In this document: positions 29,921 through 47,333 of the stretch, piece by piece | Position numbering within the stretch: position 1 is the stretch's first letter | Layout of the letters: the number at the start of each line of letters is the position of its first letter | Source of the DNA: Candidatus Peregrinibacteria bacterium | Lineage (GTDB): Bacteria > Patescibacteriota > Gracilibacteria > Peribacterales > Peribacteraceae | Direction: 5' to 3' | DNA length: 64,000 bases | NCBI GenBank assembly: GCA_043814035.1 | Contig: JBDRKJ010000012.1 | Span: 4,028-68,027 of the forward strand | Made by a program: the position numbers and the translations under genes | The notes under the pieces: model-generated | The model's input: only the letters and a program-made list of their open reading frames with translations | Told to the model about the DNA's origin: nothing | Database searches by the model: none

Positions 29921-31204
29921 CTACCCCAGCACCTTCGTCGTCGGGCGCACTTCTACGTTCCCCGAGCTGCGATCCTTCACTTCGACTCCCCCTGCCTTCA
30001 GGCTCTTGAGTGAAACAATGACACGCGTGGGAATACCAAGAAGATCGGCATCGTTGAGCCGTGAACCGACTGATGCATCTATGCGATCATCGAGTAGGCA
30101 GGCAACTCCCTTCTCCTGCAACGAACGATAGAGCTCCTGTGCGACAGTGAACGGCTCTTCGTCAGTGTGTTTAGCCAGCGGAACAATGAGAACACGTGCC
30201 GGTGCAATGTCTGCCGGCCACACGAGCCCGTCTTTATCGGCAAACGCCTCTGCAATGATACCCATAAGGCGCGAGATACCGATGCCGTAGCATCCCATGA
30301 GAATGGGGTGCACCGTGCCTTTCTCATCGGTGTACACGAGCTTGAATGGATCAGAGAACTTCGTGCCCAACTTGAAGATATTGGCAGCTTCGCTGGCACG
30401 CTCTTCGCGGAACTCTTTGCCATCAGTCACAGGGCACGTGGTTTTCTTGGGATCGTAGATCTCGTGATTCACCGCAATACGCTTACCCTGCTTCTCGGCT
30501 TCGACGCTCACGAAGATGGTATCTTCACCCTGTGGCAGAAGCACTTGGTACTCATGGGAATACGGTGAGAAGGAACCACCGGAGGCGTAGGTGAGGTACG
30601 TGCGATCGGCCAGCCCAAGTCGCTCAAAGATCTTGTCGTACGCACCTTGCACTTTTTCGTAGTAACGATCGAGGCAGGCGGCATCAGGATGGAAGGAGTA
30701 GAGATCCTTCATGAGGAATTCCTTGCCCCGAAGAATGCCGGATTTTGCTCTCAGCTCATTACGAAACTTCGTCTGAATTTGGTAGCAACCGAAAGGTAAA
30801 TCGCGATAGGAATGGATGAAGCGTTGCACAAGCGGCACCACGACTTCCTCGTGCGTGGGATTGAGTGCGTACTCCTGCTCCCCGGCGGCCGGTACGTGAA
30901 AGAGAGGCTCGAAGGCCTTCTTATCCCACCGGCCGGTCTTCTCCCAATACTCACGTGGAGCGAGCGCCGACATCACGATCTCCTGCCCACCGATGTCATC
31001 CATCTCTTCGCGAACGACCTGCTCGATCTTGCGTAGAACCTTGAGGCCCAGCGGAAGAAAGGAATACACACCAGCCATGGTCTTACTGATGTACCCCGCA
31101 CGCGTGAGTAGCTCCGCATTGACGCTTTTGGCATCGGCTACGGCATCCTTGGAGGTCTTGGTGAAAAGGTGAGAGAGAAGCATAGGAAGACGGAACGGGA
31201 TCAT
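29921..31204 (-). CDS. proS: proline--tRNA ligase (short form without INS editing domain)
   Basis: LLTRAGYISKTMAGVYSFLPLGLKVLRKIE, class-II motifs (FRNELR, GCYGIGISRL) and a C-terminal anticodon-binding domain. Confidence 0.92.
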   Translation of the reverse strand: MIPFRLPMLLSHLFTKTSKDAVADAKSVNAELLTRAGYISKTMAGVYSFLPLGLKVLRKIEQVVREEMDDIGGQEIVMSALAPREYWEKTGRWDKKAFEPLFHVPAAGEQEYALNPTHEEVVVPLVQRFIHSYRDLPFGCYQIQTKFRNELRAKSGILRGKEFLMKDLYSFHPDAACLDRYYEKVQGAYDKIFERLGLADRTYLTYASGGSFSPYSHEYQVLLPQGEDTIFVSVEAEKQGKRIAVNHEIYDPKKTTCPVTDGKEFREERASEAANIFKLGTKFSDPFKLVYTDEKGTVHPILMGCYGIGISRLMGIIAEAFADKDGLVWPADIAPARVLIVPLAKHTDEEPFTVAQELYRSLQEKGVACLLDDRIDASVGSRLNDADLLGIPTRVIVSLKSLKAGGVEVKDRSSGNVEVRPTTKVLG

Positions 31205-31699: not shown

Positions 31700-31815
31700 T
31701 TTTGTGACTGGTTGGCTCGTTACTCGTTACTCGATTGAGCAGAAGGCAAACAAATAACGAGCAACCAGCCAACGAGCAACAGGTACCCCATCCCCAATAT
31801 TCCAATCCCTCATCC

Positions 31816-32631
31816 CTAAACAGCAGCTACATCACACACTCCTCGGTACGGACACCACTTACACGCCGAGGCACTGGGTGTTGGCCGATAATCCTTCGCT
31901 GTCATGCGCTCGTGAATGAGCTTGATCTGTGTGCGTGCATCTTTGAGCTGAGAAGCTGATCGCATCGTGGCCCGCTCCACTACACCTTCATCAGAGAGAA
32001 AGAGCAGAAGAAGCTCGGTGCACGGTTTATCGAAGAGCTGCTCACTTGCGAGGGCATAGAGCGAGAGCTGTAGATCGGCATCGGCCTCCGCTTCTGTACA
32101 AGGGGCCGACGTCTTGAAATCCACGATCCGCACGCCCTGCTCAGCCTGTTCAATGCGATCAAGTCTGCCCGTGATCGTCGTGCCATCCACTTCTATCGAA
32201 AAACCTTTCTCGACAGCGATGATGTTCTGAGGAGAAGCCACCCACCATCCAAAGAATTGGCGCAGAAGTTCCTCTCCTCTCTTACGCGCAAAATCTGCCT
32301 CCAACCGTGTTTTGTACGTATCGAAGACGAAGCAATCGTGCCAGATTTCGAGGAGCTTCTCTTCTGAAAGAGAAGGTTCCTGAGGCACAGCCTGCTCAAC
32401 GAACAAACCCAGCTGATCCCCCCGCACCCCTTCTTTTTTTTGCTTTCTACGCCCTACGCCCAACTCCCTACCCCCTAATTCCAATTCCCCCCATCGCTTG
32501 AGCGCGTTGTGCACACTCCCGCCAAAACTCTCACCTTCCGAAATGCCCCACGGAATTTTTTTGACGTGCGAAAATTCGAACTGACGGGGACACGTGCGAT
32601 AGCGGCGCAGCTGGGAATACGAGAGGGGCAC
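31816..32631 (-). CDS. PD-(D/E)XK nuclease, Cas4/RecB-like with four-Cys Fe-S cluster signature
   Basis: N-terminal Cys (YRTCPRQF), GRLDRIE, IVDFKTS, QLSLYAL, and C-terminal CKWCPYRGVC (C-x2-C-x5-C). GTG start 19 nt after the giant ORF stop. Confidence 0.8.
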   Translation of the reverse strand: MPLSYSQLRRYRTCPRQFEFSHVKKIPWGISEGESFGGSVHNALKRWGELELGGRELGVGRRKQKKEGVRGDQLGLFVEQAVPQEPSLSEEKLLEIWHDCFVFDTYKTRLEADFARKRGEELLRQFFGWWVASPQNIIAVEKGFSIEVDGTTITGRLDRIEQAEQGVRIVDFKTSAPCTEAEADADLQLSLYALASEQLFDKPCTELLLLFLSDEGVVERATMRSASQLKDARTQIKLIHERMTAKDYRPTPSASACKWCPYRGVCDVAAV

Positions 32632-32650
32632 GACGGCAGTTTACATCATC

Positions 32651-35600
32651 TCACTGCGAAGGCTCCTTTCCATGATTGATGGCATCGAGATCCTCAAGCA
32701 GACGATTGTATGCACCCGAACCGCCATACATATTGCAACAGAATGCCGCAGGGTCTTGCAGATCAGAAAGGCTGCCCAAATCAGCAAGCCATTTCCCCTG
32801 CTCCTCATCAAAGGTGATATAAAGATACTTGTTGATCCACGTGCCATACTCCTTCGTGTAGTAATGCCCATTCACATTCGCATTGATTCTGCGCATCAGG
32901 GCTTCTCCCGCCTCAATTTTGGGACGATATTTCTCTGACACCTGATCACGCGGTGTAAACCCGTACCCGAGACGCTCCTTATCCTCCGTCGACATGCTCT
33001 GCCACGTTGATGCAGGATCCGCCAGCAGGCGCTCGACTTCCCGCTGCGCATCCTGCAGGACCTCCTGGAACTCCCATACGCCCTGATCACGCGGAGCTTT
33101 AGCATCAGACATAAGCTGTCGCGTGAGCGTACTGCCCTTTTCTCTAGCCAGTGTTTTCACTTGTTCCATCGCATACATGCGCACGATGCGAGGAGAATCC
33201 CCATCGAGTCCGCCCTTGATGTTATCTTCTGCGGAACGCATGCAATAATTGACGTAAGTCTGCTTTGCGTTAGAGAGAACGGTAGAGGCAATCACCTGCT
33301 CGACCTGGTGATACTGAGCCTTACGCTGCTGCGGACTCTGCATCGCCAAATACACAGATAAACCTCCATAGAGCTCATCGGTCTGCTTGCGACGCAGATA
33401 CTTCTGATAGAGCTGTGCCTGCTTCATCAAATCGGTCTCATCGAGAATCTCACCCAATTGCGCTGCGATCCCGCGGGCAGCCGGATCGGTGGAGCGCTGC
33501 AATTCTGCACGGCGTTTCTCGAGGACTGGCCTGTCCTTAGCAAGGAGACCTGCGGCTTCGGATTCCTCGAGGAGATCGGTGATATTGCCGTACGATTTGA
33601 TGGCATGCGCGGCATCCTGACGGCGCGAGAGGATGTACTCTACTTTGGCTTCCACATACCGATCAAGTTCCTGCTGATACTGTTTCACTTCCGTGGGATA
33701 GAGATCCCGAGGTTGGCCATCATCTCCTGTGACTACCTCAGGAATAGTGACAGTGGTGGTATGCGCGACGACGGCTCTGATCTTCTTTCGATCAACCTCC
33801 TGGATGCGCCGAAAAAGATCTTTAATCTGCTCCTCTCTGCCACCAGAAACCAGTGTGTAGAGTTCGGATCCCTGCTGCCAGACATGCGCTCCAGGAACAG
33901 CCAGCGTCCAAAGCGACATATTCGAGAGTTCCCATGCGTGCCCCGTACGCTCGCCAAAACTATACGTGCGGACATCCGTGAGAAGCGCGATGATATCGAA
34001 TTCCTTGTGCCAATCTTCCGCCGTGCGTTCCTGGGCCTCCTTCCACTTATGTCCTTCGTACGCACCATAGATAACTGCCGAAACCGGAAGCGTTGCAAGA
34101 ACAAGCGGCAGCGCTACCGTACCACCGACACCCACGATCAGACAGCCACCGGCGATAAACCCTACACCAGAAACACCCAGCTGGGCTGCCTGGTAGTAGT
34201 AGCGTTGCTCGGTAAGTCTGATCACCTCCGGACTAACATTCTTCTGCTTCTGCTGATCAATAATCTCAGCCGTTTCGATCATTTCGCACACGGTTCCGAA
34301 GATCACAGCCACATCAATGACCACTGGCGCAACCCGACCCGCTCCTTTCAGGACACGCATAACACGGGAAGTCTTCGAGAGTGCACTTACAAGATCACCA
34401 CCTCCATCAACTACTTTGAGTGCACGAGCAAATCCCTTCTCAGACTGCATGACGCGTCCAAGGAGGGCAGCATGTTCAGGGACATCCGCCGAGGCATTAA
34501 GTGTGCGCAAAAGTTTGGCAGGATCATCGACAGAATCCAGATGGCGGAAGAGTATCCGAGCAAATTCCGGCGATTCATCGAGTGCTTTCTGTAGATTGGT
34601 ATTCAGTGGAACGGTCTTGAGAAGGTTGCGCACTTTGTCGGAAGCCTTGAGGGCATCCAGTCGCTTGGCATTGGCCGCGGCCTGTTCGATTGCCTCACCC
34701 ACATCTCCGTGCTTATCCACAAAGCGCGCGGCAGCCTCAGGTGAAACGAGTTCATGAGCCGGGGTGGTGGTGCCGGGACCGACAGAACGCGTGCGTCCGG
34801 CACCGGGCATACGTTCAGCCTGCGCCGTGCCTGTGCCTGTAGTGCGAGCCGAAGCGGGCTGTGTCTGGGGGCCTCCTGCAGGAGTCGTGCTGCCACTACG
34901 TGGACCCTGCGCTGGGTTTCCTGACGGAGAAGTAGGAGCCTTTCCGCCCGGATTTTTCGGGGTAGCAGGACTCGTCTTTGGTCCTGTGGGATGTGGTGAA
35001 GGCGCACCTGCGCGAGACCGACACAAGCGCGCAGCATCTTTGTACGCTGCCTCAGCAGCCTCATCCCCTATTGGATCAGAGAGAAACATACGCACTCCAA
35101 AGTTTTTGCGGGAGAGTTGCCTCACCCGACTTTTCTTCAGCCTTGCGATAATTGTATCTTTAAGGCTCTTACGAACGGCTGCAATGCTTTCTGCACGATC
35201 CGGACGGGACACGTGGAGCTTCGCGGCAACGGTATCGAGCTCATCGAAAGTCGTTGCGGATTCCAGCATACCAACCCACTCCGGACGAATGGCCATGATC
35301 TTCTCTCCTTCCGCGGCTCTGGCGAAAATAGAGTTGAGACGACGACCCGCAAAATAGCCCCTGACTGTACCTTGTTCCGACATGAAATTCTTCACGAGTC
35401 GCACATCAAGCGCGCCGCGGTAAGCATTGCGCATCCAGAAATATTCAGCAACTCCTGGAGTCATATTCTTAAGCACGGACCACTTTCCACCCAGTTTGAA
35501 AACATAGCCACCTCCAACAGCAATCCGCTTCAATCGCGAAAAAGCAACAAACGGCAAAGACAGTAGCCCGGTATCTGCTATCCCTGTGAGAAGGCCGCTC

Positions 35601-37756
35601 GCATTTTCTGCGGCAACGTTCGACCAGGACTCGCCCTTAAGACGATGAAGCCCCGGAAGTGTTGTGACGACATCAGCGACCGAAGTGAATGGAACAACAC
35701 AAACGGTTGCCGCATCATCGATGAGATCCGTAAAGAAAAAAGCATTCCCCAACACCATTCCAACAGTTTCAGATCCCCATACATTCCCAAGCTTGTCATG
35801 CGCTTCTCTCTGGCGTCGGCGTACGTACCGACCCACACGAGCGAGGAAGTAATTGAGCGCATTCTCCTCACCCGGCTGCATTTCTTCGGCAAGACGCAGA
35901 AGTTCATCGCGATCCCGAATGCGGGGATCGGTGCAGAGTTGTTGTTGAGGTTCCTGTGCATGCTGCCAACGCACAATCCCGCCAGAAATATCCAGCGAGA
36001 TGCCAACTTCCCGAAGAAGCGGTTTCAGTGCTTCAAAAGCACGTTCGGGTCCATCACTCTGCGGCACATCTTTTCCGCGTTCGGCAACAAAAACTTCCTC
36101 AAAGGTATCCAATGTTTCCAATGCCTTTTTGAGTTTTATCGGATCGCCTGCCTTCTTCCTCTCGTCCGACCGGCCGGCCTCATCAAAATCTGCCTGAAGC
36201 CAGAAGCGCAGACTGTGTATTCCGCACCGGTTCTGATTCTCAATGATCTGCTCATCGGAACCCCCAATGATTCGAGGGATAGCCTCATCCAGTTTCGCAA
36301 TAAAATCTGTGAGCTGATCCTGCAACCATGGGCCAAAAGTGCCGCTCGACATCGCGAGATTCACCGCGTGATCGCGTAGATCATTAAACACGCCGGAGAT
36401 CGCCTCAGAAACTCCAAGGACAACAGGCTCCTTCCGCACACATGCCTGACCGAGGGCCTGCAGATTCTCGGGCAGGAATAATTCCTTGCCGGCAGCCACG
36501 GAACGCCGGGCGGCCAGAATACCTCCGCCGATTGCAAACAGTGAGAAGAAAGGATGATGCAAGAGCTGCTTAAACCCCCAACTGGCAATAGTTGTGGTGA
36601 CCTCCACAGCCTTCTTCGCAGCCGAACCCGATCCTTTAAGTATAGGAAGAAGCACTCCAAGTTTGGCTGCAATGAGACCGGCACCGATTACTTCAGCAGG
36701 GTGATCTTCGATCCACTTGATTAAGTAGCGGATACCCAGCTCCAACTGCTGTTCGTAGTGCGCAAGGGCAACATCGATGCGTTGATACGTGACTGTGCCT
36801 TCTGGCAGCTTCTTTGTTTCGTACTTCTGGCGCATATCTGCAAGAAACTCTGCGTACTGCGGAGTTTCTCCTTTCTCTGCAAATCCAAACAACGCACGAA
36901 TTTCAGGAAGCGCGGCTGTTTCACCTAATGTGTCGTAACTCTGTTCTGCCCTGTCGTACTCCTCATCACTGATGCCGTACTTTTTGCCCTTTCCCTCAAA
37001 ACCGAGCCCCGCCTTGATCTTGTGCTCCATCCTCGCCATCCAGTCTTTCGCCTGATCCCACGATCCAAAGTTTTTGCGCATCCATTGCACTCCTTCGTAG
37101 ATACCCCATCCAGCCAGAGCCATGAGTCCGACTCCTGGAATCCATTTCGCCGCTCTCCAGAAGAGACTCTCTCTTTTGGCTGGTTTCTCACCCTCTTTTT
37201 TCTCTGCTTCCCCTTCCTTCTTCTTATCCCCTCTCCACCACTTCCAGAGCTTGTAGATCAGTGCCACTCCTAGTGTGGACCCAACGGCAATCGTCAGAGT
37301 CGGATGCTCCTTGGCAAACCCCTTTGTGTGCTCCCACCCCGCCTGCGTTTTCTCTTTCGTCCACTCCCACGCTCCTGCAAGCCCGTTCTTTTCCGTGGTC
37401 GCAGCGGGAGCTGAGGGGGTCTGACGCGATGCATTGATGCCGTTCTGCAGCAGACTGATCTTGCGCAGTGTTTCGGCTCTCTCCTTGGCTTGCTCCCTCA
37501 GGCGCTGACAGTTCATGTTGATGATGTTGCACTGTTGCTCCGAGAGCGTCTTACTGCGCTCGAGCATGGCCTGATACACAGGAGACTGCTCATCGAGTGT
37601 GCCCACCGCTTGTTCCAGTTTTTCAACATCCGGATTGGACTGTAGAAATGTCTCCAAAACGTGTTTTGGAAGCACCTCCACATTCCGACACAAGAGTCGG
37701 TGCTCACTGATGGATTCAACGTGCCGATAGGGACGGGGCAGTTTCGTCATACTCAT
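32651..37756 (-). CDS. giant (1701 aa) multi-pass membrane protein of unknown function
   Basis: Uninterrupted ORF with several hydrophobic helix clusters (aa ~165-225, ~370-430, ~1140-1240), a Pro/Gly/Thr-rich disordered segment (aa ~985-1070) and long helical regions. I recognise no catalytic motif. Confidence 0.8.
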   Translation of the reverse strand: MSMTKLPRPYRHVESISEHRLLCRNVEVLPKHVLETFLQSNPDVEKLEQAVGTLDEQSPVYQAMLERSKTLSEQQCNIINMNCQRLREQAKERAETLRKISLLQNGINASRQTPSAPAATTEKNGLAGAWEWTKEKTQAGWEHTKGFAKEHPTLTIAVGSTLGVALIYKLWKWWRGDKKKEGEAEKKEGEKPAKRESLFWRAAKWIPGVGLMALAGWGIYEGVQWMRKNFGSWDQAKDWMARMEHKIKAGLGFEGKGKKYGISDEEYDRAEQSYDTLGETAALPEIRALFGFAEKGETPQYAEFLADMRQKYETKKLPEGTVTYQRIDVALAHYEQQLELGIRYLIKWIEDHPAEVIGAGLIAAKLGVLLPILKGSGSAAKKAVEVTTTIASWGFKQLLHHPFFSLFAIGGGILAARRSVAAGKELFLPENLQALGQACVRKEPVVLGVSEAISGVFNDLRDHAVNLAMSSGTFGPWLQDQLTDFIAKLDEAIPRIIGGSDEQIIENQNRCGIHSLRFWLQADFDEAGRSDERKKAGDPIKLKKALETLDTFEEVFVAERGKDVPQSDGPERAFEALKPLLREVGISLDISGGIVRWQHAQEPQQQLCTDPRIRDRDELLRLAEEMQPGEENALNYFLARVGRYVRRRQREAHDKLGNVWGSETVGMVLGNAFFFTDLIDDAATVCVVPFTSVADVVTTLPGLHRLKGESWSNVAAENASGLLTGIADTGLLSLPFVAFSRLKRIAVGGGYVFKLGGKWSVLKNMTPGVAEYFWMRNAYRGALDVRLVKNFMSEQGTVRGYFAGRRLNSIFARAAEGEKIMAIRPEWVGMLESATTFDELDTVAAKLHVSRPDRAESIAAVRKSLKDTIIARLKKSRVRQLSRKNFGVRMFLSDPIGDEAAEAAYKDAARLCRSRAGAPSPHPTGPKTSPATPKNPGGKAPTSPSGNPAQGPRSGSTTPAGGPQTQPASARTTGTGTAQAERMPGAGRTRSVGPGTTTPAHELVSPEAAARFVDKHGDVGEAIEQAAANAKRLDALKASDKVRNLLKTVPLNTNLQKALDESPEFARILFRHLDSVDDPAKLLRTLNASADVPEHAALLGRVMQSEKGFARALKVVDGGGDLVSALSKTSRVMRVLKGAGRVAPVVIDVAVIFGTVCEMIETAEIIDQQKQKNVSPEVIRLTEQRYYYQAAQLGVSGVGFIAGGCLIVGVGGTVALPLVLATLPVSAVIYGAYEGHKWKEAQERTAEDWHKEFDIIALLTDVRTYSFGERTGHAWELSNMSLWTLAVPGAHVWQQGSELYTLVSGGREEQIKDLFRRIQEVDRKKIRAVVAHTTTVTIPEVVTGDDGQPRDLYPTEVKQYQQELDRYVEAKVEYILSRRQDAAHAIKSYGNITDLLEESEAAGLLAKDRPVLEKRRAELQRSTDPAARGIAAQLGEILDETDLMKQAQLYQKYLRRKQTDELYGGLSVYLAMQSPQQRKAQYHQVEQVIASTVLSNAKQTYVNYCMRSAEDNIKGGLDGDSPRIVRMYAMEQVKTLAREKGSTLTRQLMSDAKAPRDQGVWEFQEVLQDAQREVERLLADPASTWQSMSTEDKERLGYGFTPRDQVSEKYRPKIEAGEALMRRINANVNGHYYTKEYGTWINKYLYITFDEEQGKWLADLGSLSDLQDPAAFCCNMYGGSGAYNRLLEDLDAINHGKEPSQ

Positions 37757-37947
37757 GAACGGGAAAAGAGTGAGTGACCAAATTCTTTGATACCGCGTAT
37801 CGTTGTGTTGATGCCCCTGCCTACAGCCCCCATTCCACCGACGACGACAGGGTTGATGACACGATCAAAGGATCCGTGCACCCAACGCTGTACGCGTTCG
37901 ACAGGTGATTGCATCGCCGGATCACGATCGAGTGTGTTGGATTTCAT
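37753..37947 (-). CDS. 64-aa microprotein, translationally coupled to the giant ORF
   Basis: ATG at 37947. Its TGA stop overlaps the ATG of the giant ORF (ATGA at 37753-37756). It has a Gly-rich hydrophobic core, VVVGGMGAVGRG. Confidence 0.5.
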   Translation of the reverse strand: MKSNTLDRDPAMQSPVERVQRWVHGSFDRVINPVVVGGMGAVGRGINTTIRGIKEFGHSLFSRS

Positions 37948-37980
37948 GATGAGAAAATGGATGTAAATAATTATCGGAAA

Positions 37981-38832
37981 TTAACGCGCTTTCTTGCCCC
38001 TCATCTTTGCGATATACCCCAACGGCACCGAAACCGGTGCAATGATGCCTTGCGCCATCGTACCCAGAAGACCTGCAGGCGCACTGCCACGAACACGCTG
38101 ATGCCAACGCCCAAGACCATAGAGTCCTGCGCCAACACCGAGAGGCAGAGCTGCACTCATTGCAAGGCCCGAGAGAACTCCCGCACCTTGAACCGCTCCA
38201 AGTGCTGCAAGTCCGGACGGCGCACCGCCCGTCATGCCCGCAACCGTAGAAAGGTTAACGTACGGCACAACCGCCATTGTTGTTGCCGCACCGGCAGCAG
38301 CACCTGCCAGAGATCCGGCAACGGGATGCTTAAGTTTCTTTCCGAGATAGTATCCCGCCGCTCCTCCAGCAGCAGGAACGCCGAGTGTGAGCCCCAACAT
38401 GCTCGCCGAAGGCATAAAGCCTGCAACAGTCGTAGCTGCTACCGGGGAAAGTATGGTAGATCCATACGCGGGCAACACCGACGCGGCAGCGGCCGTTCCG
38501 AATGCTGCTGCAGCTGTGCCTTTTACGATTGATTCCCGTGAAACGGCTTCTTTCTGCGAGGCAGGTACGTCAGAGATTTGCAGAACATCAGGAGCGGCGA
38601 CGGGAACAGGTGTTTCCGAACGCAAAGTAGCTGCCTTAGCAGCAGCTTCCTGCTCCTCCTGCTCGCGCTCTCTTTCCTGAGCGGCATCGTTTGAAGCGGA
38701 GAGAAAAGGTGCCAGTTGATCGCGAGCCAATGCTCGGCCCTGCTCGACATCACCATGTTCAGGGAGACCTGTATGAAGTGGAACGCTCTCCGGCTGGGAA
38801 CCCTCTGGAAGAAATGGTGTGGGTGTGTGCAT
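37981..38832 (-). CDS. glycine-zipper-rich membrane protein (283 aa)
   Basis: Acidic disordered N-terminal half. The C-terminal half is Gly/Ala-rich hydrophobic segments (GAAGYYLGKKL..AGSLAGAAAGAATT..GGAPSGLAALGAVQGAGVLSGLAMSAALPLGVGAGLYGLG). Confidence 0.65.
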   Translation of the reverse strand: MHTPTPFLPEGSQPESVPLHTGLPEHGDVEQGRALARDQLAPFLSASNDAAQEREREQEEQEAAAKAATLRSETPVPVAAPDVLQISDVPASQKEAVSRESIVKGTAAAAFGTAAAASVLPAYGSTILSPVAATTVAGFMPSASMLGLTLGVPAAGGAAGYYLGKKLKHPVAGSLAGAAAGAATTMAVVPYVNLSTVAGMTGGAPSGLAALGAVQGAGVLSGLAMSAALPLGVGAGLYGLGRWHQRVRGSAPAGLLGTMAQGIIAPVSVPLGYIAKMRGKKAR

Positions 38833-38852
38833 AGGAAAGAATGTAAGGAATA

Positions 38853-40286
38853 TCAGGACATTTTCTCAAACTTGAATTTTTCTACTGTCACAGATGACTT
38901 GCCGCTCCCGAGCGCATCGAGCACCGCGCACAACTTATCCATCTTGAGCGGCTTCTCTTCTGAGTAGTTGCCTTGCCCCTGCTTTGCCCACGGCATGGTC
39001 GGCTCTACAGTGAAATGTACGGTGGCGCCCAGCACCAAACCCTCTGATCTCCACTCCGCCTTTGTGAACCGAGGCTGAACTTCGGTTTCGTTGCAGGACT
39101 TCACATACGCGATGGTTTTGGAAAGCAATATCCGATCGGTGAAACTCAAGGGACGCAGAACGCGGTAGCGGTACGCACCGATCTGAATCTCGCCGCTCGG
39201 TAGAACGGACACGGTGAGACGATTGCCCTTGTACGTGATCTGCTGCGGCGACTCGAGAAAACTCGTGCCGTATGCGGGACCGGTGAGCACCGATGGATTG
39301 ACGGCTTCAGGGGAAGGAGTGGAAGTTGAAGGAACTGCCTGTGGATTCGCCACGGGAGCACCGACGGCAGTTGCACCGACCGCGGCAGCGGCAGGAGCAG
39401 CAGCCGGAACCGTACCAGGAGCAGGAGTTGGTGTGGCTGCAGGAGCTGCGCCGGGAGCAGGAGTGGGCGCAGCTGGCGTCGCCAGCTTCTGCGCAACAAC
39501 CTGATCGGCCGCCTGTTCCAGCTGCAGTTGCGTCACCTTGAGCGGGATCACACTGCGGTTTGCAGGGTTCTCACGCAGCTTGAGAGCGACCAGCCGGCAG
39601 TACTCATCGAACGAGAGTGCTTGCCCCGTCACCGCAATCATCTGAAACTTTTCCATGAACGGCTTCAGCGAGAGCTCTTGCTTGGGATCATTGGGCAAAA
39701 CCTCGACCTTGAACTTGGCAAAGTTCTTGTAGAGCACGCCGTAGTCCCCCATGACGAAATTGAGGGGTTTCTTGATCCAGTCAGGCAGGTAGTCATCCAC
39801 CGATGCGGCGAGGGTACCGAACATTTGCGCTGATTTCTCGCGCAACCACGAGAATGCGGTCCCAACGGCCGCGATCGTGGCCGTCAGCCCTTCGACGAAT
39901 TTTCCCCAGCCCTTTCCGCCCCACTCCTTTGTCCATCCCCAGCCATCCTTCAGCCAGCCTTGCACCGTCTCGGCCCCGTCTTTGAGCTTGTCACCCGTCC
40001 ACGCCATCCAGCCTTCAGGCTTCTCGGGGGATGGTGCGCTGGGAGCGCTCTCGGAGGGCTTCGGCTGTTCGACAGGCGCAGAAGAAGTTTGTGAAGGTTG
40101 CTCTGGTAGACCATTCCTTGCGATTTCGCGCGCAGCTTTCGTTCGCTCTTCCAGAGCCTGCTGCTCTGTTGTAAGACGTTCCTGCGCTTCTCGAGCAATG
40201 CGCTGATCATCTGTCTCAATCCGCTCTGCGGATGCAGGAGCAGATTCTATGGGAGAAGAGGGTTGTTTTTTTTGATCTTCGGACAT
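38853..40286 (-). CDS. hypothetical protein (477 aa), paralog of the 385-aa protein
   Basis: Disordered acidic/Pro-rich N-terminus, a Trp-rich motif (GWGWTKEWGGKGWGKF) with an adjacent hydrophobic helix, a Pro/Ala linker, and a C-terminal domain shared with 40304..41461. Confidence 0.7.
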   Translation of the reverse strand: MSEDQKKQPSSPIESAPASAERIETDDQRIAREAQERLTTEQQALEERTKAAREIARNGLPEQPSQTSSAPVEQPKPSESAPSAPSPEKPEGWMAWTGDKLKDGAETVQGWLKDGWGWTKEWGGKGWGKFVEGLTATIAAVGTAFSWLREKSAQMFGTLAASVDDYLPDWIKKPLNFVMGDYGVLYKNFAKFKVEVLPNDPKQELSLKPFMEKFQMIAVTGQALSFDEYCRLVALKLRENPANRSVIPLKVTQLQLEQAADQVVAQKLATPAAPTPAPGAAPAATPTPAPGTVPAAAPAAAAVGATAVGAPVANPQAVPSTSTPSPEAVNPSVLTGPAYGTSFLESPQQITYKGNRLTVSVLPSGEIQIGAYRYRVLRPLSFTDRILLSKTIAYVKSCNETEVQPRFTKAEWRSEGLVLGATVHFTVEPTMPWAKQGQGNYSEEKPLKMDKLCAVLDALGSGKSSVTVEKFKFEKMS

Positions 40287-40303
40287 GGAAAGTGGAAGAA
40301 AAA

Positions 40304-41461
40304 TTACACAGGAATGCGCTCGAAGCGGAATTCACTACTCGTGTACTGCGCACCATTGGGATTACGCACTACTGCCTCCAAAAAGGCGCGGACATCAGTC
40401 ATCGCCACAACCTTCGGAGAAAAATATTCAATAGGAGCTGTGTTACTTCCTGTCGCTTTCCCCTCAAACTGGAATCCAGCCTGTGAGAGTTGAGCATTTC
40501 TCATTTCCCACCTCAACGAATTGGGATCCGTAATCGCAGTGGGCACCAAACGATACCGTAGAGGGGCAGTCGCCGGACCAACGGAGACGTTCCACTCGCC
40601 ATTCGGCAGAACCTGAAGGGCAACGGTCTGATTGAGTACCTGCACCTTCGTCGGAGCCGGACCCATAACATTGATTGCGGTCGTCACTGATTCGAGAGGA
40701 GACACAAATTCAGGCGCCTGCGCCACCTGCCCGGGGAGCGTTCCCGGCAGCTCCTTGGCGGCTGCTGCCATGGCTCGAAAATCTTCGGCGACGATCTGTG
40801 TTTTTGTTCCGTTGGTCTTCTTCCACTCGCGCACAACCTCGTTGTAGTAAACCTCACGCGTGAATGTAGGGCCGCGTGTCTGCGCGAGTACCTTGTACTG
40901 CTCGGCTAACATTGTCTGCGCACCTTCGGCAATTTCCGTCTGTGCCTTTGCATTCGCATCCTCTGGGTTGATTACAGAGAGTGTCAGGTTTCCTTTCTTA
41001 AGAGCAGAAACGAGTTCCGCGTAATCGGCGCCTGCCATCTCGTTGAGCCACTCAGCAGCCTTTTTGAAGCCGAGCATCGTGAGCGTACTGGCCATGCCGC
41101 GGAGCGTTGCAGACCCCATCGATTGAATCTGCTTCATGAATTTCTGCACCATCGCGAACATCTTCTGCATGGCATCGCCCACTCTCTCGAAGGCACCCTT
41201 GTTGGTGCCCAAATCATCCTCTTCGGGTGTGCCCGGCTTTGCTCCCTCCGGCTGTTGCATCACCGCAATGCCCTGCTGCAATTTCGCCTCAGGATCGTTG
41301 ACACTCTGAGAAAGACCTTCGCGATTATCTCTGTTCTCCGTGCGAATCCTCCCTTCATCGAGAGAAGGAGGGGCGGCAGATTCTTGAGGGGCAGCCGGTT
41401 GAGTCTCTTGGCCCTCAGGCGCCGCAGAAAGAGGTGTGTTTTCGAGGGGTTTGTAGCTCAT
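40304..41461 (-). CDS. hypothetical protein (385 aa), first gene of the cluster
   Basis: Disordered N-terminus, a Met-rich amphipathic segment, and a C-terminal domain (LQVLPNGEW...LRYRLVP...FRFERI) paralogous to 38853..40286. Confidence 0.7.
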   Translation of the reverse strand: MSYKPLENTPLSAAPEGQETQPAAPQESAAPPSLDEGRIRTENRDNREGLSQSVNDPEAKLQQGIAVMQQPEGAKPGTPEEDDLGTNKGAFERVGDAMQKMFAMVQKFMKQIQSMGSATLRGMASTLTMLGFKKAAEWLNEMAGADYAELVSALKKGNLTLSVINPEDANAKAQTEIAEGAQTMLAEQYKVLAQTRGPTFTREVYYNEVVREWKKTNGTKTQIVAEDFRAMAAAAKELPGTLPGQVAQAPEFVSPLESVTTAINVMGPAPTKVQVLNQTVALQVLPNGEWNVSVGPATAPLRYRLVPTAITDPNSLRWEMRNAQLSQAGFQFEGKATGSNTAPIEYFSPKVVAMTDVRAFLEAVVRNPNGAQYTSSEFRFERIPV

Positions 41462-41485
41462 GTTTGTTTTGGTGAATTTACTACT

Positions 41486-41515
41486 ATTCTACCACAAAAA
41501 CCCCATTTCTCACAA
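41486..41515 (-). promoter_or_regulatory. candidate promoter of the six-gene cluster
   Basis: Minus strand TTGTGA, 18-nt spacer, TAGAAT with an extended -10 TG (tgGTAGAAT), about 25 nt upstream of the ATG at 41461. Confidence 0.45.
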
Positions 41516-44876: not shown

Positions 44877-47333
44877 GTGCCCAAGAAGAAGAACCCCAAG
44901 GAGGCCGAGCTTAAAAAGCGCGTTGCCAAACTGCCAACCAAGCCCGGCGTCTACCGCTGGCTCGATGCCAAAGGCACGGTGCTCTATGTGGGCAAAGCCC
45001 TGAATCTGCGCAAGCGCGTGACGAGCTATTTGAACAAGGATGCCGTACTGGGACCGTGGAAACAGTCGCTTATTGCAAAGGCTGTCGATGTTTCGGTGAC
45101 GGTAACGAGCTCGGAGCTTGAGGCGCTCATTCTTGAAACCAACCTCATCAAGCAAAAGAAGCCCAAATACAACGTGCTTATGAAGGATGACAAGAACTAC
45201 GTGTACGTGCGCATCAGTTTGCAGGATACCTTTCCTCGCATTGATCTCGTACGCAAGCCATCTGAAGATAAGGCCAAGTACTTTGGCCCGTACGTGAGTG
45301 CATTCTCTGTTCGCGAAACGCTTACATTGCTGCGACGTGTGTTCCCCTACCGCACATGCAAGATGTGCATTGAACCCGCGATGGGCAAACTTCCCTCCCC
45401 CCGCGGGGGAGGGAGCGAGGGAGAGGGGCTTTCCGTCACCGTCACGCACCGCGACCGCCCCACACCGTGTCTGGATTATCACATCAAGCAATGTTGTGCA
45501 CCCTGCATTGGATGCGTGACATCAAAGGAGTACCAACACATGGCAACAGAAGGCGTGATCGACTTTCTCAAGGGCAAAACCGACGATGCTCTCGCCCTCC
45601 TCAGAGAACAAATGAAAGTCGCCGCGCGCGACCGTAAGTTCGAGCAGGCCGCCAAACTGCGTAACGCGTTGCAGACAATTGAGCGACTTTCCGAAAAACA
45701 GATCGTCTCTGACACCACAGGAGAGGATGCCGATATCTTCGGCATCGCAGTGGAAGGAAGCCGCGTGCACGTGGTGCTGCTCAAAGAGCGAAGTGGAAAA
45801 GTCATCGACGAATCATCGTTCACACTGCTCGGTCATGCAGAGAGTGACACCGAAGCACTCACGCAGTTTTTACCCCAGTACTACGCGGACGCCCCCGATG
45901 TGCCACCACTCCTACTGCTACCAACTGATGTCTCCGACTCAAAGCTCCTTGCACAGTGGCTCACGAAACGTCGCGCCCTTCAACTACGTTCAGGGCGCCC
46001 TGAGCGACAAGTCCCGCAGAGCGGGATGAGGAGTCGAACGGGCGGATCGAAAGTTGTCATCCGTGTGCCGGAACGCGGCAAGGGAGGCAAGCTCCTCGCA
46101 CTCGCCGAAGAGAACGCACACGAGAAGGTGCAGCACTTCGAAACCAAGTGGGAAGCCGCCGCGCGCAATGTGGAGGATGCGCTGAAGGAATTGAAAGTCA
46201 CCCTCGACCTGCCGACGGCTCCCAAGCGCATCGAAAGCTATGATATTTCGCATTTAAGCGGCACCGAAACAGTGGGGAGCATGTCGGTTTTCGTTGATGG
46301 TAAGCCAAAAAACGACCAGTACCGATCGTTCACCCTCCGCACGGTGCGCGAAGGGGAGATCGACGACTATCGGGCACTAAAAGAAGTACTGGGACGCAGG
46401 CTCCGCCACCTGACAACGGACTTACGACAGGAACAAAAGGGATGGAAAACGGAAGGCGTCACGTTCGGCAAAGTGCGAAAAGATGAGCACAAGCACATCA
46501 TGAGCCTTCATAAAGAGCACTATCAGGAAATCAACGATGAAGACATCGACTTTGCCAAGTACCTAGTGGCCCGCCAAGGAAAATCAATCGTCGGATTCTG
46601 CCGCATCGTGGAACATACAGGAGGGCATAAAGAGCTCAAGAGTCTCTGGATTCATGATGATTTTCGCGGGCAGAAACTGGGGCAGTTTCTCATAAGAAAA
46701 ATTCTCTCCATGCAGAAGAAAACAAAGAAGATATTCATCACAGCAAAAACTTCTCTCGTGGAATACTACGGAACCATCGGATTCCGGCCAGCGAATAACC
46801 CGCCGCAAATCATCGTCAAAAAACATGAACGGGCAGCGCGGAAGAAAGGAGTACCGACAGGTATCGTCATGGTCTACATCTTCGCAGAACACAAAAAGGA
46901 TGATGTCTCGTTGACCGCGTATCCCGACCTCCTTCTCATCGACGGCGGCAAAGGGCAACTCAACGCTGCATTGGAAGTCCTCAAGGAACTCGCGCTCTCT
47001 ATTCCTGTGATCAGCCTCGCCAAACGGGAAGAGGAGGTATTCGCACCAAGGCACCCCAACCCCATCACGTTTGCCAAAGATGCGCCGGCACGATTCCTGC
47101 TCATGCGCCTGCGGGACGAAGCCCACCGCTTCGCCAATGCCCACCGCGAAACGCGAGCCAAGAAACGTGCGGTCTTCTCGGTCTTAGACTCTCTCCCCGG
47201 TATTGGTCCGCAGACACGCGTGAAGCTACTGAAGAAATTCGGCTCGCTCGAAGCTATTCAGGCAGCGAGCGATAAAGAGCTCCTCAAGATCCTTTCACGA
47301 TCGCAGCTCACAACGTTGCGAGAACAGCCTTAA
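44877..47333 (+). CDS. uvrC: excinuclease ABC subunit C with an embedded GNAT domain
   Basis: GIY-YIG (GVYRWLD..GTVLYVGKALNLRKRV), UVR motif (RKFEQAAKLRNALQTIERL), endonuclease domain (IESYDISHL, LLLIDGGKGQL) and C-terminal HhH. At 818 aa it is ~200 aa longer than typical UvrC. GTG start. Confidence 0.93.
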   Translation: MPKKKNPKEAELKKRVAKLPTKPGVYRWLDAKGTVLYVGKALNLRKRVTSYLNKDAVLGPWKQSLIAKAVDVSVTVTSSELEALILETNLIKQKKPKYNVLMKDDKNYVYVRISLQDTFPRIDLVRKPSEDKAKYFGPYVSAFSVRETLTLLRRVFPYRTCKMCIEPAMGKLPSPRGGGSEGEGLSVTVTHRDRPTPCLDYHIKQCCAPCIGCVTSKEYQHMATEGVIDFLKGKTDDALALLREQMKVAARDRKFEQAAKLRNALQTIERLSEKQIVSDTTGEDADIFGIAVEGSRVHVVLLKERSGKVIDESSFTLLGHAESDTEALTQFLPQYYADAPDVPPLLLLPTDVSDSKLLAQWLTKRRALQLRSGRPERQVPQSGMRSRTGGSKVVIRVPERGKGGKLLALAEENAHEKVQHFETKWEAAARNVEDALKELKVTLDLPTAPKRIESYDISHLSGTETVGSMSVFVDGKPKNDQYRSFTLRTVREGEIDDYRALKEVLGRRLRHLTTDLRQEQKGWKTEGVTFGKVRKDEHKHIMSLHKEHYQEINDEDIDFAKYLVARQGKSIVGFCRIVEHTGGHKELKSLWIHDDFRGQKLGQFLIRKILSMQKKTKKIFITAKTSLVEYYGTIGFRPANNPPQIIVKKHERAARKKGVPTGIVMVYIFAEHKKDDVSLTAYPDLLLIDGGKGQLNAALEVLKELALSIPVISLAKREEEVFAPRHPNPITFAKDAPARFLLMRLRDEAHRFANAHRETRAKKRAVFSVLDSLPGIGPQTRVKLLKKFGSLEAIQAASDKELLKILSRSQLTTLREQP
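46412..46920 (+). other. GNAT acetyltransferase-like domain inserted inside the UvrC endonuclease domain
   Basis: The ~170-aa insert lies between ...VLGRRLRHL and PDLLLIDGGKGQL. It contains LWIHDDFRGQKLGQFLIRKIL, an acetyl-CoA-binding motif A of the R/Q-x-x-G-x-G/A type. Confidence 0.7.

What the first reader, a model, noticed from the sequence alone, without database searches (positions are those of the whole stretch)
31816..41515. Six-gene cluster of unrecognisable proteins built around a 1701-aa membrane giant and ending in a Cas4/RecB-like Fe-S nuclease
Seen in sequence: six co-directional minus-strand ORFs (385, 477, 283, 64, 1701 and 271 aa) are packed with gaps of only 17, 20, 33, -4 (ATGA overlap) and 19 nt. 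A candidate promoter sits upstream (TTGTGA-18-TGgTAGAAT, 41486-41515), and a hairpin follows the last gene. I recognise a family only for the last gene: a PD-(D/E)XK nuclease with GRLDRIE, IVDFKTS, QLSLY and a C...C-x2-C-x5-C cluster. The other five have no catalytic motif I can name. They share an architectural theme: disordered acidic or Pro-rich N-termini, Trp-rich amphipathic motifs next to hydrophobic helices, glycine-zipper membrane segments, and a giant protein with at least three clusters of TM helices. Inference: this looks like a membrane-embedded multi-protein apparatus co-expressed with a DNA end-processing nuclease. Envelope or host-contact machinery, DNA uptake or processing, and a defence module are all conceivable. 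Nothing in the window (no cas1/cas2, no array, no pilus or secretion ATPase) assigns it to a known system.
Basis: partly seen in the sequence, partly recalled or inferred. Interest (0 to 1): 0.8.

Follow-up and report, generated by a model that had tools for sequence, protein, structure and literature searches.

The report
Hypervariable membrane-protein operon unique to Peregrinibacteria
A tightly packed gene cluster in an uncultured Peregrinibacteria (CPR) bacterium encodes five proteins that match no known family or fold. It sits at the same chromosomal spot throughout the phylum, yet whole protein modules differ between close relatives, and the nuclease at its end looks like an ordinary DNA-repair enzyme next door.

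Summary
Six co-directional minus-strand ORFs lie at the stated coordinates and spacings, behind a promoter-like element conserved in 7 of 8 related genomes. The last ORF is a PD-(D/E)XK nuclease with a four-cysteine Fe-S motif.

The organism is a Peribacteraceae bacterium (Candidatus Peregrinibacteria). The other five proteins match nothing in Pfam, NCBIfam, PADLOC, PHROGs or PDB sequences. AlphaFold models of the giant's N-half and of the 385-aa protein have no Foldseek match.

The cluster occupies the same site (HPF | cluster | nuclease | DUF212 | ProRS) in every Peregrinibacteria locus examined. The 283-aa gene is optional.

The giant is modular: a conserved N-terminal anchor, then interchangeable middle and C-terminal modules joined by Pro-rich linkers. 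Against a relative with about 90% identical flanks, window 34969-39331 is unalignable and synonymous sites are saturated. This indicates replacement by an anciently diverged allele.

The nuclease evolves slowly. In other phyla it is the C-terminal domain of UvrD-type helicase-nucleases, so it is probably a repair enzyme, and its link to the cluster is unproven.

My best reading, at low confidence, is a lineage-specific membrane-anchored assembly under diversifying selection. Its function is unknown.

The parts
41486..41515 (-). Sigma-70-type promoter-like element: TTGTGA, 18-nt spacer, TG-extended TAGAAT. It lies about 25 nt upstream of the first gene's ATG.
   Evidence: Consensus scan. The hexamers, spacer and 5'UTR are conserved in 7 of 8 Peribacteraceae loci while the surrounding intergenic DNA is not.
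40304..41461 (-). p385, a 'stalk-and-head' protein. It has a disordered acidic/Pro-rich N-terminus (aa 1-~90), a very conserved helical core (aa ~90-236), a short Pro-rich linker, and an exchangeable C-terminal beta domain (aa ~265-385).
   Evidence: ORF. No HMM hit. The family has 22 clusters, all from Peribacteraceae/Peregrinibacteria. AlphaFold pLDDT is 70 overall and about 90 for the beta domain. No Foldseek hit in PDB or BFVD. dN/dS is 0.12 against L001.
38853..40286 (-). p477, a second 'stalk-and-head' protein. It has an acidic coiled-coil N-terminus, a Trp/Gly-rich amphipathic motif plus a weakly hydrophobic helix (aa ~90-150), a conserved LPDWxKKPLNF segment, a Pro/Ala-rich linker (aa ~270-330), and a variable beta 'head' (aa ~330-477).
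   Evidence: ORF. Orthologue alignment A3. Its N-part weakly matches the giant's N-anchor profile (E = 4e-5 here, 4e-6 and 4e-5 for two other family members). The head type differs from that in L001-L007.
37981..38832 (-). p283, an accessory glycine-zipper membrane protein with a Pro-rich/acidic N-terminus.
   Evidence: ORF and hydrophobic segments. Homologues occur only in L004, L007 and L008; there is an 86-aa remnant in L002, and it is absent elsewhere.
37753..37947 (-). s64, a small conserved protein whose stop overlaps the giant's start (ATGA).
   Evidence: Conserved in L001-L004, L006-L008, L034 and L036, including an uncalled copy in L001. dN/dS is 0.49.
37067..37756 (-). Giant, N-terminal anchor module (aa 1-230). 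It comprises a confident helical bundle (aa 31-110), a W-rich amphipathic motif, and a hydrophobic hairpin (156-174 and 203-221) with a Lys-rich loop.
   Evidence: This is the only part shared with the otherwise unrelated giants of L005, L008 and L010, and with distant L021. AlphaFold pLDDT is about 90 for aa 31-110. The family-averaged loop has 5.5 K/R against 2.6 D/E.
35087..37066 (-). Giant, middle module (aa 231-890). It is all-alpha and of unknown fold, and it is the most divergent part between close relatives.
   Evidence: An exhaustive HMMER search gives 69 representative clusters, 47 below 1e-30, all from 1200-2100-aa proteins or fragments of them. AlphaFold is confident over aa 260-630 and 740-880. 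Foldseek against PDB gives no hit at E <= 1e-3. Identity to L001 is 30-33% against about 90% in the flanks.
34730..35086 (-). Giant, Pro-rich low-complexity linker (aa ~891-1009). One breakpoint of the divergent cassette lies here.
   Evidence: Alignment A1. The blastn breakpoint is at window 34969.
32651..34729 (-). Giant, C-terminal module (aa 1010-1701). It is helical, with a hydrophobic block at aa ~1140-1230 and a conserved ~90-aa C-terminal domain.
   Evidence: Found in only a subset of family members, including two that lack the middle module (P0083, P0090). It is 89% identical to L001.
34969..39331 (-). Divergent 'cassette' relative to the closest relative L001. It spans the p477 head, p283, s64 and the giant's aa 1-~930.
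   Evidence: blastn flanks are 88-95% identical. Inside the cassette there is no alignment, apart from s64 plus the giant's aa 1-140 at 79% and a 79-nt stretch (37033-37111) at 84%. Inside it dS is 0.58-0.70 or saturated, against 0.13-0.31 in the flanks.
31816..32631 (-). Stand-alone RecB-family PD-(D/E)XK nuclease with a four-cysteine (Fe-S type) motif.
   Evidence: PF12705 at 1.3e-34. Catalytic and Cys residues are invariant. Closest solved relative is the AdnAB nuclease domain at E = 1.7e-7. It is fused to UvrD helicases in other phyla. dN/dS is 0.13.
31703..31781 (-). Stable hairpin in the nuclease-DUF212 spacer. It is not a canonical terminator and is not conserved.
   Evidence: dG -44.9 kcal/mol, z = -4.3, no U-tract. 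Inverted repeat. The spacer is absent in L001 and unique in the window.

Best explanation
The region is a vertically inherited operon specific to Peregrinibacteria. It is driven by one conserved promoter and encodes a membrane-anchored protein assembly built from folds not yet described.

Proposed anatomy:
- The conserved pieces form the invariant core of the complex. These are the helical core of p385, s64, and the N-terminal anchor of the giant (helical bundle, Trp-rich interfacial helix and a hairpin with a Lys-rich loop), with a weak copy of that anchor in p477.
- The variable pieces are carried on Pro/Ala-rich linkers. These are the beta 'heads' of p385 and p477, the optional glycine-zipper protein p283, and the giant's middle and C-terminal modules.
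- The variable pieces are exchanged between lineages by recombination, with breakpoints in the sequences that encode the linkers.

A fixed core carrying swappable modules that show ancient allelic divergence is what one expects of a structure facing a changing partner, such as a host or neighbour cell surface, or phage. I therefore read it as an envelope-associated contact or exposed apparatus under diversifying selection.

The nuclease at the 3' end is a stand-alone AdnAB/AddAB-type Fe-S RecB nuclease domain. It most likely acts in DNA end processing and repair, perhaps with the stand-alone UvrD/PcrA at 10018-12306. It may be co-transcribed, but it is not a demonstrated component of the assembly.

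Shown: gene structure, promoter conservation, phylum-wide position, modularity, allelic replacement, purifying selection, and the absence of known folds.
Inferred: physical complex formation, membrane topology, exposure to the outside, and the selective agent.
For: Real, expressed-looking operon:
- Gaps run from -4 to 33 nt.
- The promoter and 5'UTR are conserved in 7 of 8 loci.
- All parts have dN/dS of 0.12-0.49.

Lineage-specific and vertically inherited:
- Homologues occur only in Peregrinibacteria MAGs.
- The position is the same in L001-L008, L010, L014, L017-L021, L034, L036 and L038.
- There are no phage hits.

Unknown folds:
- No hit in Pfam, NCBIfam, PADLOC or PHROGs.
- No Pfam domain in 27 diverse giants beyond a low-complexity repeat.
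- No PDB sequence hit.
- Confident AlphaFold domains have no Foldseek match.

Modularity:
- The N-anchor alone is shared with the L005, L008 and L010 giants. The C-module occurs with or without the middle module.
- A p385 in L035 carries a p477-type head.

Allelic replacement:
- Flanks are 88-95% identical at nucleotide level, but 34969-39331 is almost entirely unalignable against L001, and the breakpoints lie in Pro-rich linker DNA.
- Synonymous sites are saturated inside the cassette and dS is 0.13-0.31 outside it.
- A third close relative, L008, carries yet another giant type.

Membrane anchoring:
- The hydrophobic hairpin with a K/R-rich loop is conserved across the family.

Nuclease as a repair enzyme:
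-.
Against: - None of the proteins has a signal peptide. p385 has no hydrophobic segment and p477 only a weak one. External exposure of their heads is therefore unexplained, and the whole assembly could be cytoplasmic.
- The topology of the giant is unresolved. The anchor region has low AlphaFold confidence.
- Complex formation has not been tested.
- The p477 head type and the giant's middle-module type do not co-vary strictly across loci.
- Conserved position together with HPF, DUF212 and ProRS shows that this genome region is simply very collinear. Co-location is weak evidence of joint function.
- Fast evolution of helical, low-complexity proteins can partly reflect weak constraint.
Confidence: 0.4

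Rival explanations
1. Cytoplasmic or peripheral membrane scaffold. This would be a cytoskeleton-like or polar 'organelle' framework, analogous to the terminal-organelle proteins of Mycoplasma. The variable parts would be tolerated spacers rather than exposed surfaces.
For: - No signal peptides; long acidic/Pro-rich disordered regions; an aromatic- and glycine-rich motif next to hydrophobic helices; mostly helical domains; no enzymatic motif.
- Mycoplasma gliding and terminal-organelle proteins combine acidic proline-rich domains with aromatic/glycine-rich (EAGR) boxes (PMC9262362).
- The investment is large for a small genome, and the locus is present in every member examined.
Against: - No Pfam hit to the EAGR box or to any terminal-organelle family.
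- Replacement by anciently diverged alleles between strains with about 90% identical flanks, with saturated synonymous sites, is not expected of an internal scaffold.
- Swappable beta heads look more like binding modules.
Confidence: 0.2
2. One reading: a membrane apparatus functionally coupled to the nuclease, for example for DNA uptake, export or processing at the membrane.
For: - The nuclease directly follows the large protein on the same strand in every Peregrinibacteria locus with enough sequence, down to 44% nuclease identity.
- The gap in the window is 19 nt, with no terminator in between.
- In this phylum the nuclease is detached from the helicase it is fused to elsewhere. It could have acquired a new partner.
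Against: - The rates of evolution are decoupled: nuclease 67-93% identity against 30-34% for the giant's middle module.
- DUF212, ProRS and HPF are just as syntenic.
- The five proteins contain no DNA-binding, ATPase or channel domain.
- ComEC lies 15 kb away and is not linked.
- In L001 the nuclease abuts DUF212 as closely as it abuts the giant.
Confidence: 0.15
3. An anti-phage defence module, or a defence hotspot between core genes, with the nuclease as effector.
For: - Variable content between conserved core genes.
- The nuclease matches Cas4, DruK and Aga-nuclease models in PADLOC at E from 1e-13 to 1e-5.
- A CBASS system lies about 4 kb further upstream in L007.
Against: - The PADLOC hits cover only the generic PD-(D/E)XK domain.
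- The five other proteins have no PADLOC hit.
- The locus is present in every genome examined, with a homologous anchor, p385 core and s64. It behaves as alleles of one system, not as alternative cargo.
- There are no mobile-element genes.
- The nuclease is the least variable part.
Confidence: 0.1
4. There is no common function. The genes would be unrelated lineage-specific 'hypothetical' genes that remain adjacent only because Peregrinibacteria chromosomes are highly collinear.
For: - The whole 20-kb neighbourhood, from UvrC to CTP synthase, is collinear in Peribacteraceae.
- No interaction has been tested.
Against: - There is a single conserved promoter followed by gaps of -4 to 33 nt, and s64 overlaps the giant.
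- Motifs and architecture are shared between p477 and the giant's anchor.
- Heads are exchanged between p385 and p477.
- The p477 head, p283, s64 and the giant's N-half are replaced together as one block.
Confidence: 0.1

Closest known systems
Nuclease domains of AdnAB / AddAB-type helicase-nucleases (RecB-family PD-(D/E)XK with a four-cysteine Fe-S motif; Pfam PF12705)
   Same: The 271-aa protein covers PF12705 end to end (E = 1.3e-34). It has the D...D-x-K and Q...Y motifs and a C...C-x2-C-x5-C cluster. Its closest solved relative is mycobacterial AdnAB (6ppu/6ppj/7sjr, E = 1.7e-7). Its closest homologues outside the phylum are C-terminal domains of UvrD-helicase fusions.
   Different: It is a stand-alone domain with no helicase part. 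The only UvrD/PcrA in the window is 20 kb away and lacks a nuclease domain. Throughout the phylum it sits behind a giant membrane protein.
Cas4 (CRISPR adaptation nuclease)
   Same: The same superfamily and the same four-cysteine arrangement. There are weak hits to Cas4 models (PF01930 at 1.4e-5; TIGR00372 at 3.4e-11).
   Different: It scores below the curated Cas4 cut-off (43.3 against 65 bits). The window has no cas1/cas2 and no CRISPR array. The match covers only the C-terminal half.
Mycoplasma terminal-organelle / gliding proteins (HMW1, MG200, MG312, MG386: acidic proline-rich domains plus EAGR boxes)
   Same: The resemblance is one of architecture only. Shared features are the lack of signal peptides, long acidic/Pro-rich disordered regions, aromatic- and glycine-rich motifs, no enzymatic domains, and genes embedded among housekeeping genes in a reduced genome (PMC9262362).
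   Different: No sequence match to the EAGR box or to any such family. The proteins here have hydrophobic hairpins. The locus shows recombination-driven allelic replacement.
Hypervariable loci for large cell-surface proteins, which sit at fixed chromosomal sites and vary by allele replacement (statement from general knowledge of strain-variable surface-antigen and giant-protein islands)
   Same: Conserved flanks, anciently diverged alleles, module shuffling at low-complexity linkers, and very large proteins.
   Different: Surface location is not shown and there are no signal peptides. There are no known adhesin, Ig-like or repeat domains. The locus is never absent and always keeps a homologous anchor.

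Membership tests
PD-(D/E)XK nuclease superfamily, PF12705 (PDDEXK_1) | Profile match above the gathering score over the whole domain | tested here: met
   120.7 bits against a cut-off of 22, covering residues 3-267 of 271.
PD-(D/E)XK nuclease superfamily, PF12705 (PDDEXK_1) | Catalytic D...D/E-x-K plus Q-x3-Y motifs and a four-cysteine cluster | tested here: met
   D158, D171-x-K173, Q188/Y192, C14 and C257-x2-C260-x5-C266 are invariant in 7 orthologues. Metal and cluster binding were not tested.
Cas4 | Score above the curated equivalog cut-off (TIGR00372) | tested here: not met
   43.3 bits against a cut-off of 65.
Cas4 | Association with cas1/cas2 or a CRISPR array | tested here: not met
   No CRISPR repeat family in Rfam and no tandem array in 64 kb. 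The neighbours are housekeeping genes.
AddAB/AdnAB helicase-nuclease | UvrD-type helicase (or helicase-like) domain fused N-terminally to the nuclease | tested here: not met
   The window protein is 271 aa and consists of the nuclease domain only. Fusions of 950-1150 aa occur in Saccharibacteria, Doudnabacteria, Chloroflexi and others.
Druantia DruK / other PADLOC defence nucleases | Presence of the partner genes of the system | tested here: not met
   Only the generic nuclease domain matches (E = 7.6e-12). The five neighbouring proteins have no PADLOC hit.
Type IV pilus / T4SS / competence machinery | Secretion ATPase, pilin, secretin or ComEC-type channel within the cluster | tested here: not met
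   The five proteins have no Pfam or NCBIfam hit. ComEC is at 17262-18773 and is not linked.
Mycoplasma terminal-organelle proteins | EAGR box or another family-specific domain detectable by profile | tested here: not met
   No Pfam family at E <= 1 for p385, p477 or the giant, apart from chance-level hits. None was found in 27 giant homologues.
Polymorphic toxin / contact-dependent inhibition systems | Recognisable toxin domain at the variable C-terminus followed by an immunity gene | tested here: not met
   No toxin domain in the window giant or in 27 homologues. The most variable part is the middle module, not the C-terminus. The downstream gene is a conserved nuclease.
Secreted / surface-anchored proteins | N-terminal signal peptide, lipobox or sorting signal | tested here: inconclusive
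   By inspection, the N-termini are polar and acidic and no hydrophobic leader is present. No dedicated predictor was available. The giant's second anchor helix, preceded by a K/R-rich loop, could act as a signal anchor.

The most novel reading that the evidence does not exclude
This is the conserved core of a previously undescribed, phylum-specific cell-envelope contact apparatus of Peregrinibacteria. A fixed membrane anchor complex (p385 core, s64 and the giant's N-anchor) displays interchangeable modules of novel fold. These modules are reshuffled between lineages by recombination within the DNA that encodes Pro-rich linkers. This would make it the CPR counterpart of an attachment organelle or a phage-facing surface layer.
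Probability: 0.25. Interest if true: 0.8.

Novelty: categorically new. Interest (0 to 1): 0.55.

Why it matters
How CPR bacteria contact other cells, and what their many lineage-specific 'hypothetical' genes do, are open questions.

This locus takes about 9 kb of a genome likely to be small (a related complete contig, L038, is 1.25 Mb). It was found in every Peregrinibacteria locus retrieved and is under purifying selection. It nevertheless shows allele replacement and domain shuffling of the kind usually seen in structures that face hosts or phages.

If that reading is right, the locus gives a concrete set of genes to look for in cryo-ET, proteomic and population-genomic data from Peregrinibacteria. 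It would also add several new protein folds.

If it is wrong, the locus remains a clean example of modular evolution at low-complexity linkers.

The nuclease result matters in a smaller way. It shows a helicase-nuclease that has been split into separate genes in one phylum.

Tried and rejected
1. Known-family assignment. Pfam, NCBIfam, PADLOC and PHROGs gave nothing for the five non-nuclease proteins. Pfam on 27 diverse giant homologues gave only a low-complexity 'Decapeptide' repeat.

2. PDB sequence-profile searches for the giant, p385 and p477 gave only chance-level hits.

3. Foldseek found no match at E <= 1e-3. I searched the giant aa 1-880 model against PDB, and the p385 model against PDB and BFVD.

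4. Phage origin. tblastn of the giant and p385 against 50,697 phage records gave no match.

5. A profile word-index search with the giant's N-terminal alignment returned nothing and wasted one capped search. The exhaustive HMMER search later showed that the family has 69 representative clusters.

6. Paralogy of p385 and p477. hhalign gave E = 0.007 and probability 5%, which is not enough to claim it. Paralogy of p477 with the giant was not found by hhalign on shallow alignments. It is weakly supported by the deeper profile (E about 1e-5 for three p477-family proteins).

7. Separating the nuclease from the cluster by synteny failed. It is always adjacent to the cluster, but so are DUF212 and ProRS.

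8. The hairpin as a conserved terminator or a repeated element is rejected. It is absent in L001 and unique in the window.

9. No Shine-Dalgarno motif precedes any gene, including the housekeeping genes. Ribosome-binding sites therefore give no information here.

10. The exact-sequence look-up of the window giant failed because of a two-residue difference in start position from the deposited protein.

Full report
**1. What is in the sequence**

The six minus-strand ORFs exist exactly as described: 40304-41461 (p385), 38853-40286 (p477), 37981-38832 (p283), 37753-37947 (s64), 32651-37756 (giant, 1701 aa) and 31816-32631 (nuclease, 271 aa). The gaps are 17, 20, 33, -4 and 19 nt.

G+C content is unremarkable relative to the rest of the window.

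The neighbours are housekeeping genes:
- On one side: ProRS, a DUF212/PAP2-like membrane protein, CTP synthase and PyrD.
- On the other: a divergently transcribed ribosome hibernation factor (HPF), DUF3048, L25, a GT2 glycosyltransferase and UvrC.

A deposited protein identical apart from its start site names the organism as Candidatus Peregrinibacteria, and related records say Peribacteraceae / Ca. Peribacter.

**2. Signals**

The consensus scan finds the proposed promoter, TTGTGA-18-(TG)TAGAAT at 41515-41486. Such matches are not enriched in the region. Conservation is the stronger evidence. In 7 of 8 related loci the -35 hexamer, the spacer, the extended -10 and the short 5'UTR are almost identical, while the upstream intergenic DNA has diverged.

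The hairpin after the nuclease is thermodynamically real. However, it lacks a U-tract, occurs once in the window, and its spacer is missing in the closest relative, where the nuclease and DUF212 nearly abut. It is therefore not a conserved operon end.

No gene here, housekeeping genes included, has a Shine-Dalgarno motif.

**3. The nuclease**

It is a full-length PF12705 PD-(D/E)XK domain (E = 1.3e-34), and all catalytic residues and four cysteines are invariant.

It falls below the curated Cas4 threshold, and the window has no cas genes or arrays.

Its closest solved relatives are the nuclease domains of mycobacterial AdnAB. Outside Peregrinibacteria, its homologues are the C-terminal domains of 950-1150-aa UvrD-helicase/nuclease fusions. 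These occur in Saccharibacteria, Doudnabacteria, Gaiellaceae, Chloroflexi and deltaproteobacterial MAGs.

The window has a stand-alone UvrD/PcrA at 10018-12306 without a nuclease domain. It is 30% identical to the helicase part of such a fusion, which is compatible with a split but does not prove one.

The nuclease is 67-76% identical across Peribacteraceae, and its dN/dS is 0.13. It behaves as a housekeeping repair enzyme.

**4. The other five proteins are unknowns**

- None matches Pfam, NCBIfam, PADLOC or PHROGs.
- Profiles of the giant, p385 and p477 find nothing among PDB sequences.
- An AlphaFold model of the giant's aa 1-880, built on 45 family members, has mean pLDDT 70. It has confident all-alpha domains at 31-110, 260-630 and 740-880, and low confidence in the anchor region. 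Foldseek against PDB gives no hit at E <= 1e-3.
- A model of p385 (22 sequences, pLDDT 70) shows a disordered N-terminus, a helical bundle and a confident beta domain. It has no hit in PDB or BFVD.
- Twenty-seven diverse giant homologues carry no Pfam domain apart from a low-complexity repeat.
- There are no phage homologues.

**5. Distribution and synteny**

The word-index search found only six giants. The exhaustive HMMER search with the N-half profile found 69 representative clusters, 47 of them below 1e-30. Essentially all are 1200-2100-aa proteins or fragments of them. The p385 family has 22 clusters, and every named one is from Peregrinibacteria.

In every Peribacteraceae locus the order is:

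HPF(-) | p385 | p477 | (p283 or nothing) | s64 | giant | nuclease | DUF212 | (proBAC) | ProRS

This order is seen.

In deeper Peregrinibacteria, where nuclease identity is 44-63%, the same frame persists. A ~400-aa acidic protein ending in a beta domain and a 468-1679-aa protein with a coiled-coil N-terminus and a Lys-rich-loop hairpin lie between HPF and the nuclease-DUF212-ProRS block. A deeper profile shows the L021 giant to be homologous (E = 8.5e-95).

The system is therefore ancient, vertically inherited and specific to the phylum.

Because the flanking housekeeping genes are equally syntenic, adjacency alone cannot tell whether the nuclease belongs to the cluster or to the flank.

**6. 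Modularity and hypervariability (the main new result)**

The giant consists of four parts:
- an N-terminal anchor (aa 1-230: helical bundle, Trp-rich amphipathic motif, hydrophobic hairpin with a K/R-rich loop);
- a middle module (aa 231-890);
- a Pro-rich linker;
- a C-terminal module (aa 1010-1701).

Evidence for independent modules:
- The giants of L005 (Ca. P. riflensis), L008 and L010 share the anchor and little else with the window protein; the deeper profile adds only weak, patchy matches in their C-halves.
- The C-module occurs in only a subset of the family. That subset includes proteins that lack the middle module.
- p477 weakly matches the anchor profile (E about 1e-5 in three family members). 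It then continues through a Pro/Ala linker into a beta 'head'.
- The head of the window's p477 is of a different type from that in L001-L007, and it resembles the p385 head.
- In L035 a p385 carries a p477-type head, and p477 itself is missing.
- p283 is intact in only 4 of about 12 loci, with a remnant in L002.

Evidence for allele replacement:
- Against L001, whose flanks are 88-95% identical at the nucleotide level, window 34969-39331 does not align. The exceptions are s64 plus the giant's first 140 codons (79%) and a 79-nt stretch at 37033-37111 (84%). Both breakpoints fall in Pro-rich linker DNA.
- dS is 0.13-0.31 in the flanks, 0.47-0.70 at the edges of the cassette, and saturated in the middle module (33% amino-acid identity). 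dN/dS stays below 0.5 everywhere.
- This is the signature of replacement by an anciently diverged allele. It is not the signature of decay or of merely fast protein evolution.
- A third close relative, L008 (flanks about 83% identical), carries yet another giant type.

**7. Interpretation**

My best reading has a conserved core carrying exchangeable modules on Pro-rich linkers. The core would comprise the helical core of p385, s64, and the anchors of the giant and p477. The pattern of variation suggests that the modules face a changing partner. I therefore favour an envelope-associated contact or exposed apparatus, at confidence about 0.4.

The main weakness is that there are no signal peptides and the topology is unresolved. 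The K/R-rich loop suggests that the second anchor helix could act as a signal anchor, but this is inference.

The rivals are:
- a cytoplasmic scaffold analogous to Mycoplasma terminal-organelle proteins, a resemblance of architecture only;
- a defence module;
- mere collinearity.

None of the rivals is excluded. The nuclease-coupled reading is weakened by the decoupled rates of evolution and by the nuclease's helicase-fused homologues.

**8. Verdict**

The nuclease is a new stand-alone member of a known kind. The other five proteins cannot be filed under any known family or fold with the tools available.

The locus stands out from ordinary 'hypothetical' genes because of its phylum-wide fixed position combined with recombination-driven module exchange. 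Its function remains unknown.

Noticed in passing
window 44877-47333 (+): UvrC carries a GNAT acetyltransferase domain (aa ~548-641) inserted between the two halves of its RNase H-like endonuclease domain. The same insertion is present in all related Peribacteraceae loci.
   Followed up: partly
window 29921-31204 (-) versus L002 16638-18068, L003 19659-21131, L010 9507-10937: ProRS at this conserved position comes in two unrelated types among close relatives. The window, L001, L005, L006 and L008 have a 420-427-aa form (85-97% identical). L002, L003 and L010, and probably L004 (gene truncated at the contig end), have a 476-490-aa form with a ProRS-C_1 domain, only 25-32% identical. This suggests in-situ displacement of an essential gene. 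proB/proA/proC are inserted before it in L003, L004 and L007.
   Followed up: partly
L002 6113-6499: A bAvd / 23S_rRNA_IVP four-helix-bundle gene is inserted between DUF3048 and HPF, directly upstream of the cluster, in one relative. This family includes the accessory protein of diversity-generating retroelements. No reverse transcriptase was seen in the fetched flank.
   Followed up: no
L001 15020-15240 and 2062-4864: The closest relative has a tandem duplication of the first ~15 codons of the nuclease gene, which may be an assembly artefact or a real repeat. It also has a 2.8-kb insertion between GT2 and L25 (four small ORFs plus a TrmB-family regulator) that the window lacks.
   Followed up: no
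L007 1-2398; L005 1-352: A CBASS system (SMODS cyclase, E2-like protein, SAVED effector) lies about 1.4 kb beyond UvrC (about 7.6 kb upstream of the cluster) in one Ca. Peribacter contig. A T6SS Hcp-like gene lies near the same place in Ca. P. riflensis. The region beyond UvrC is therefore variable.
   Followed up: no
window 10018-12306 (+), 12400-14061 (-), 17262-18773 (+): The window also encodes a stand-alone UvrD/PcrA helicase, an S-layer-homology (SLH) domain protein with an acidic tandem repeat (13345-13422), and ComEC. The SLH protein suggests a wall-anchored surface layer in this organism.
   Followed up: partly
window, upstream of all genes checked between 31204 and 41461: No Shine-Dalgarno-like motif precedes any of nine start codons, including ProRS and DUF212. 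The upstream regions of several (p477, p283, s64 and the giant) are pyrimidine-rich (for example ttttcc).
   Followed up: no
L019 630-4644; L020 1-3692: In deeper Peregrinibacteria the genes beyond HPF are a 7TM_transglut membrane protein and an ATP-grasp/MATCAP-like fusion, instead of DUF3048 and L25. This shows where phylum-wide synteny ends on that side.
   Followed up: no
P0041-type giants (alignment A9): Six of 27 giant homologues match Pfam PF25296 'Decapeptide repeat region' (best E = 9e-12). The match may lie in their low-complexity linkers, but its position was not checked and the window protein does not match.
   Followed up: no
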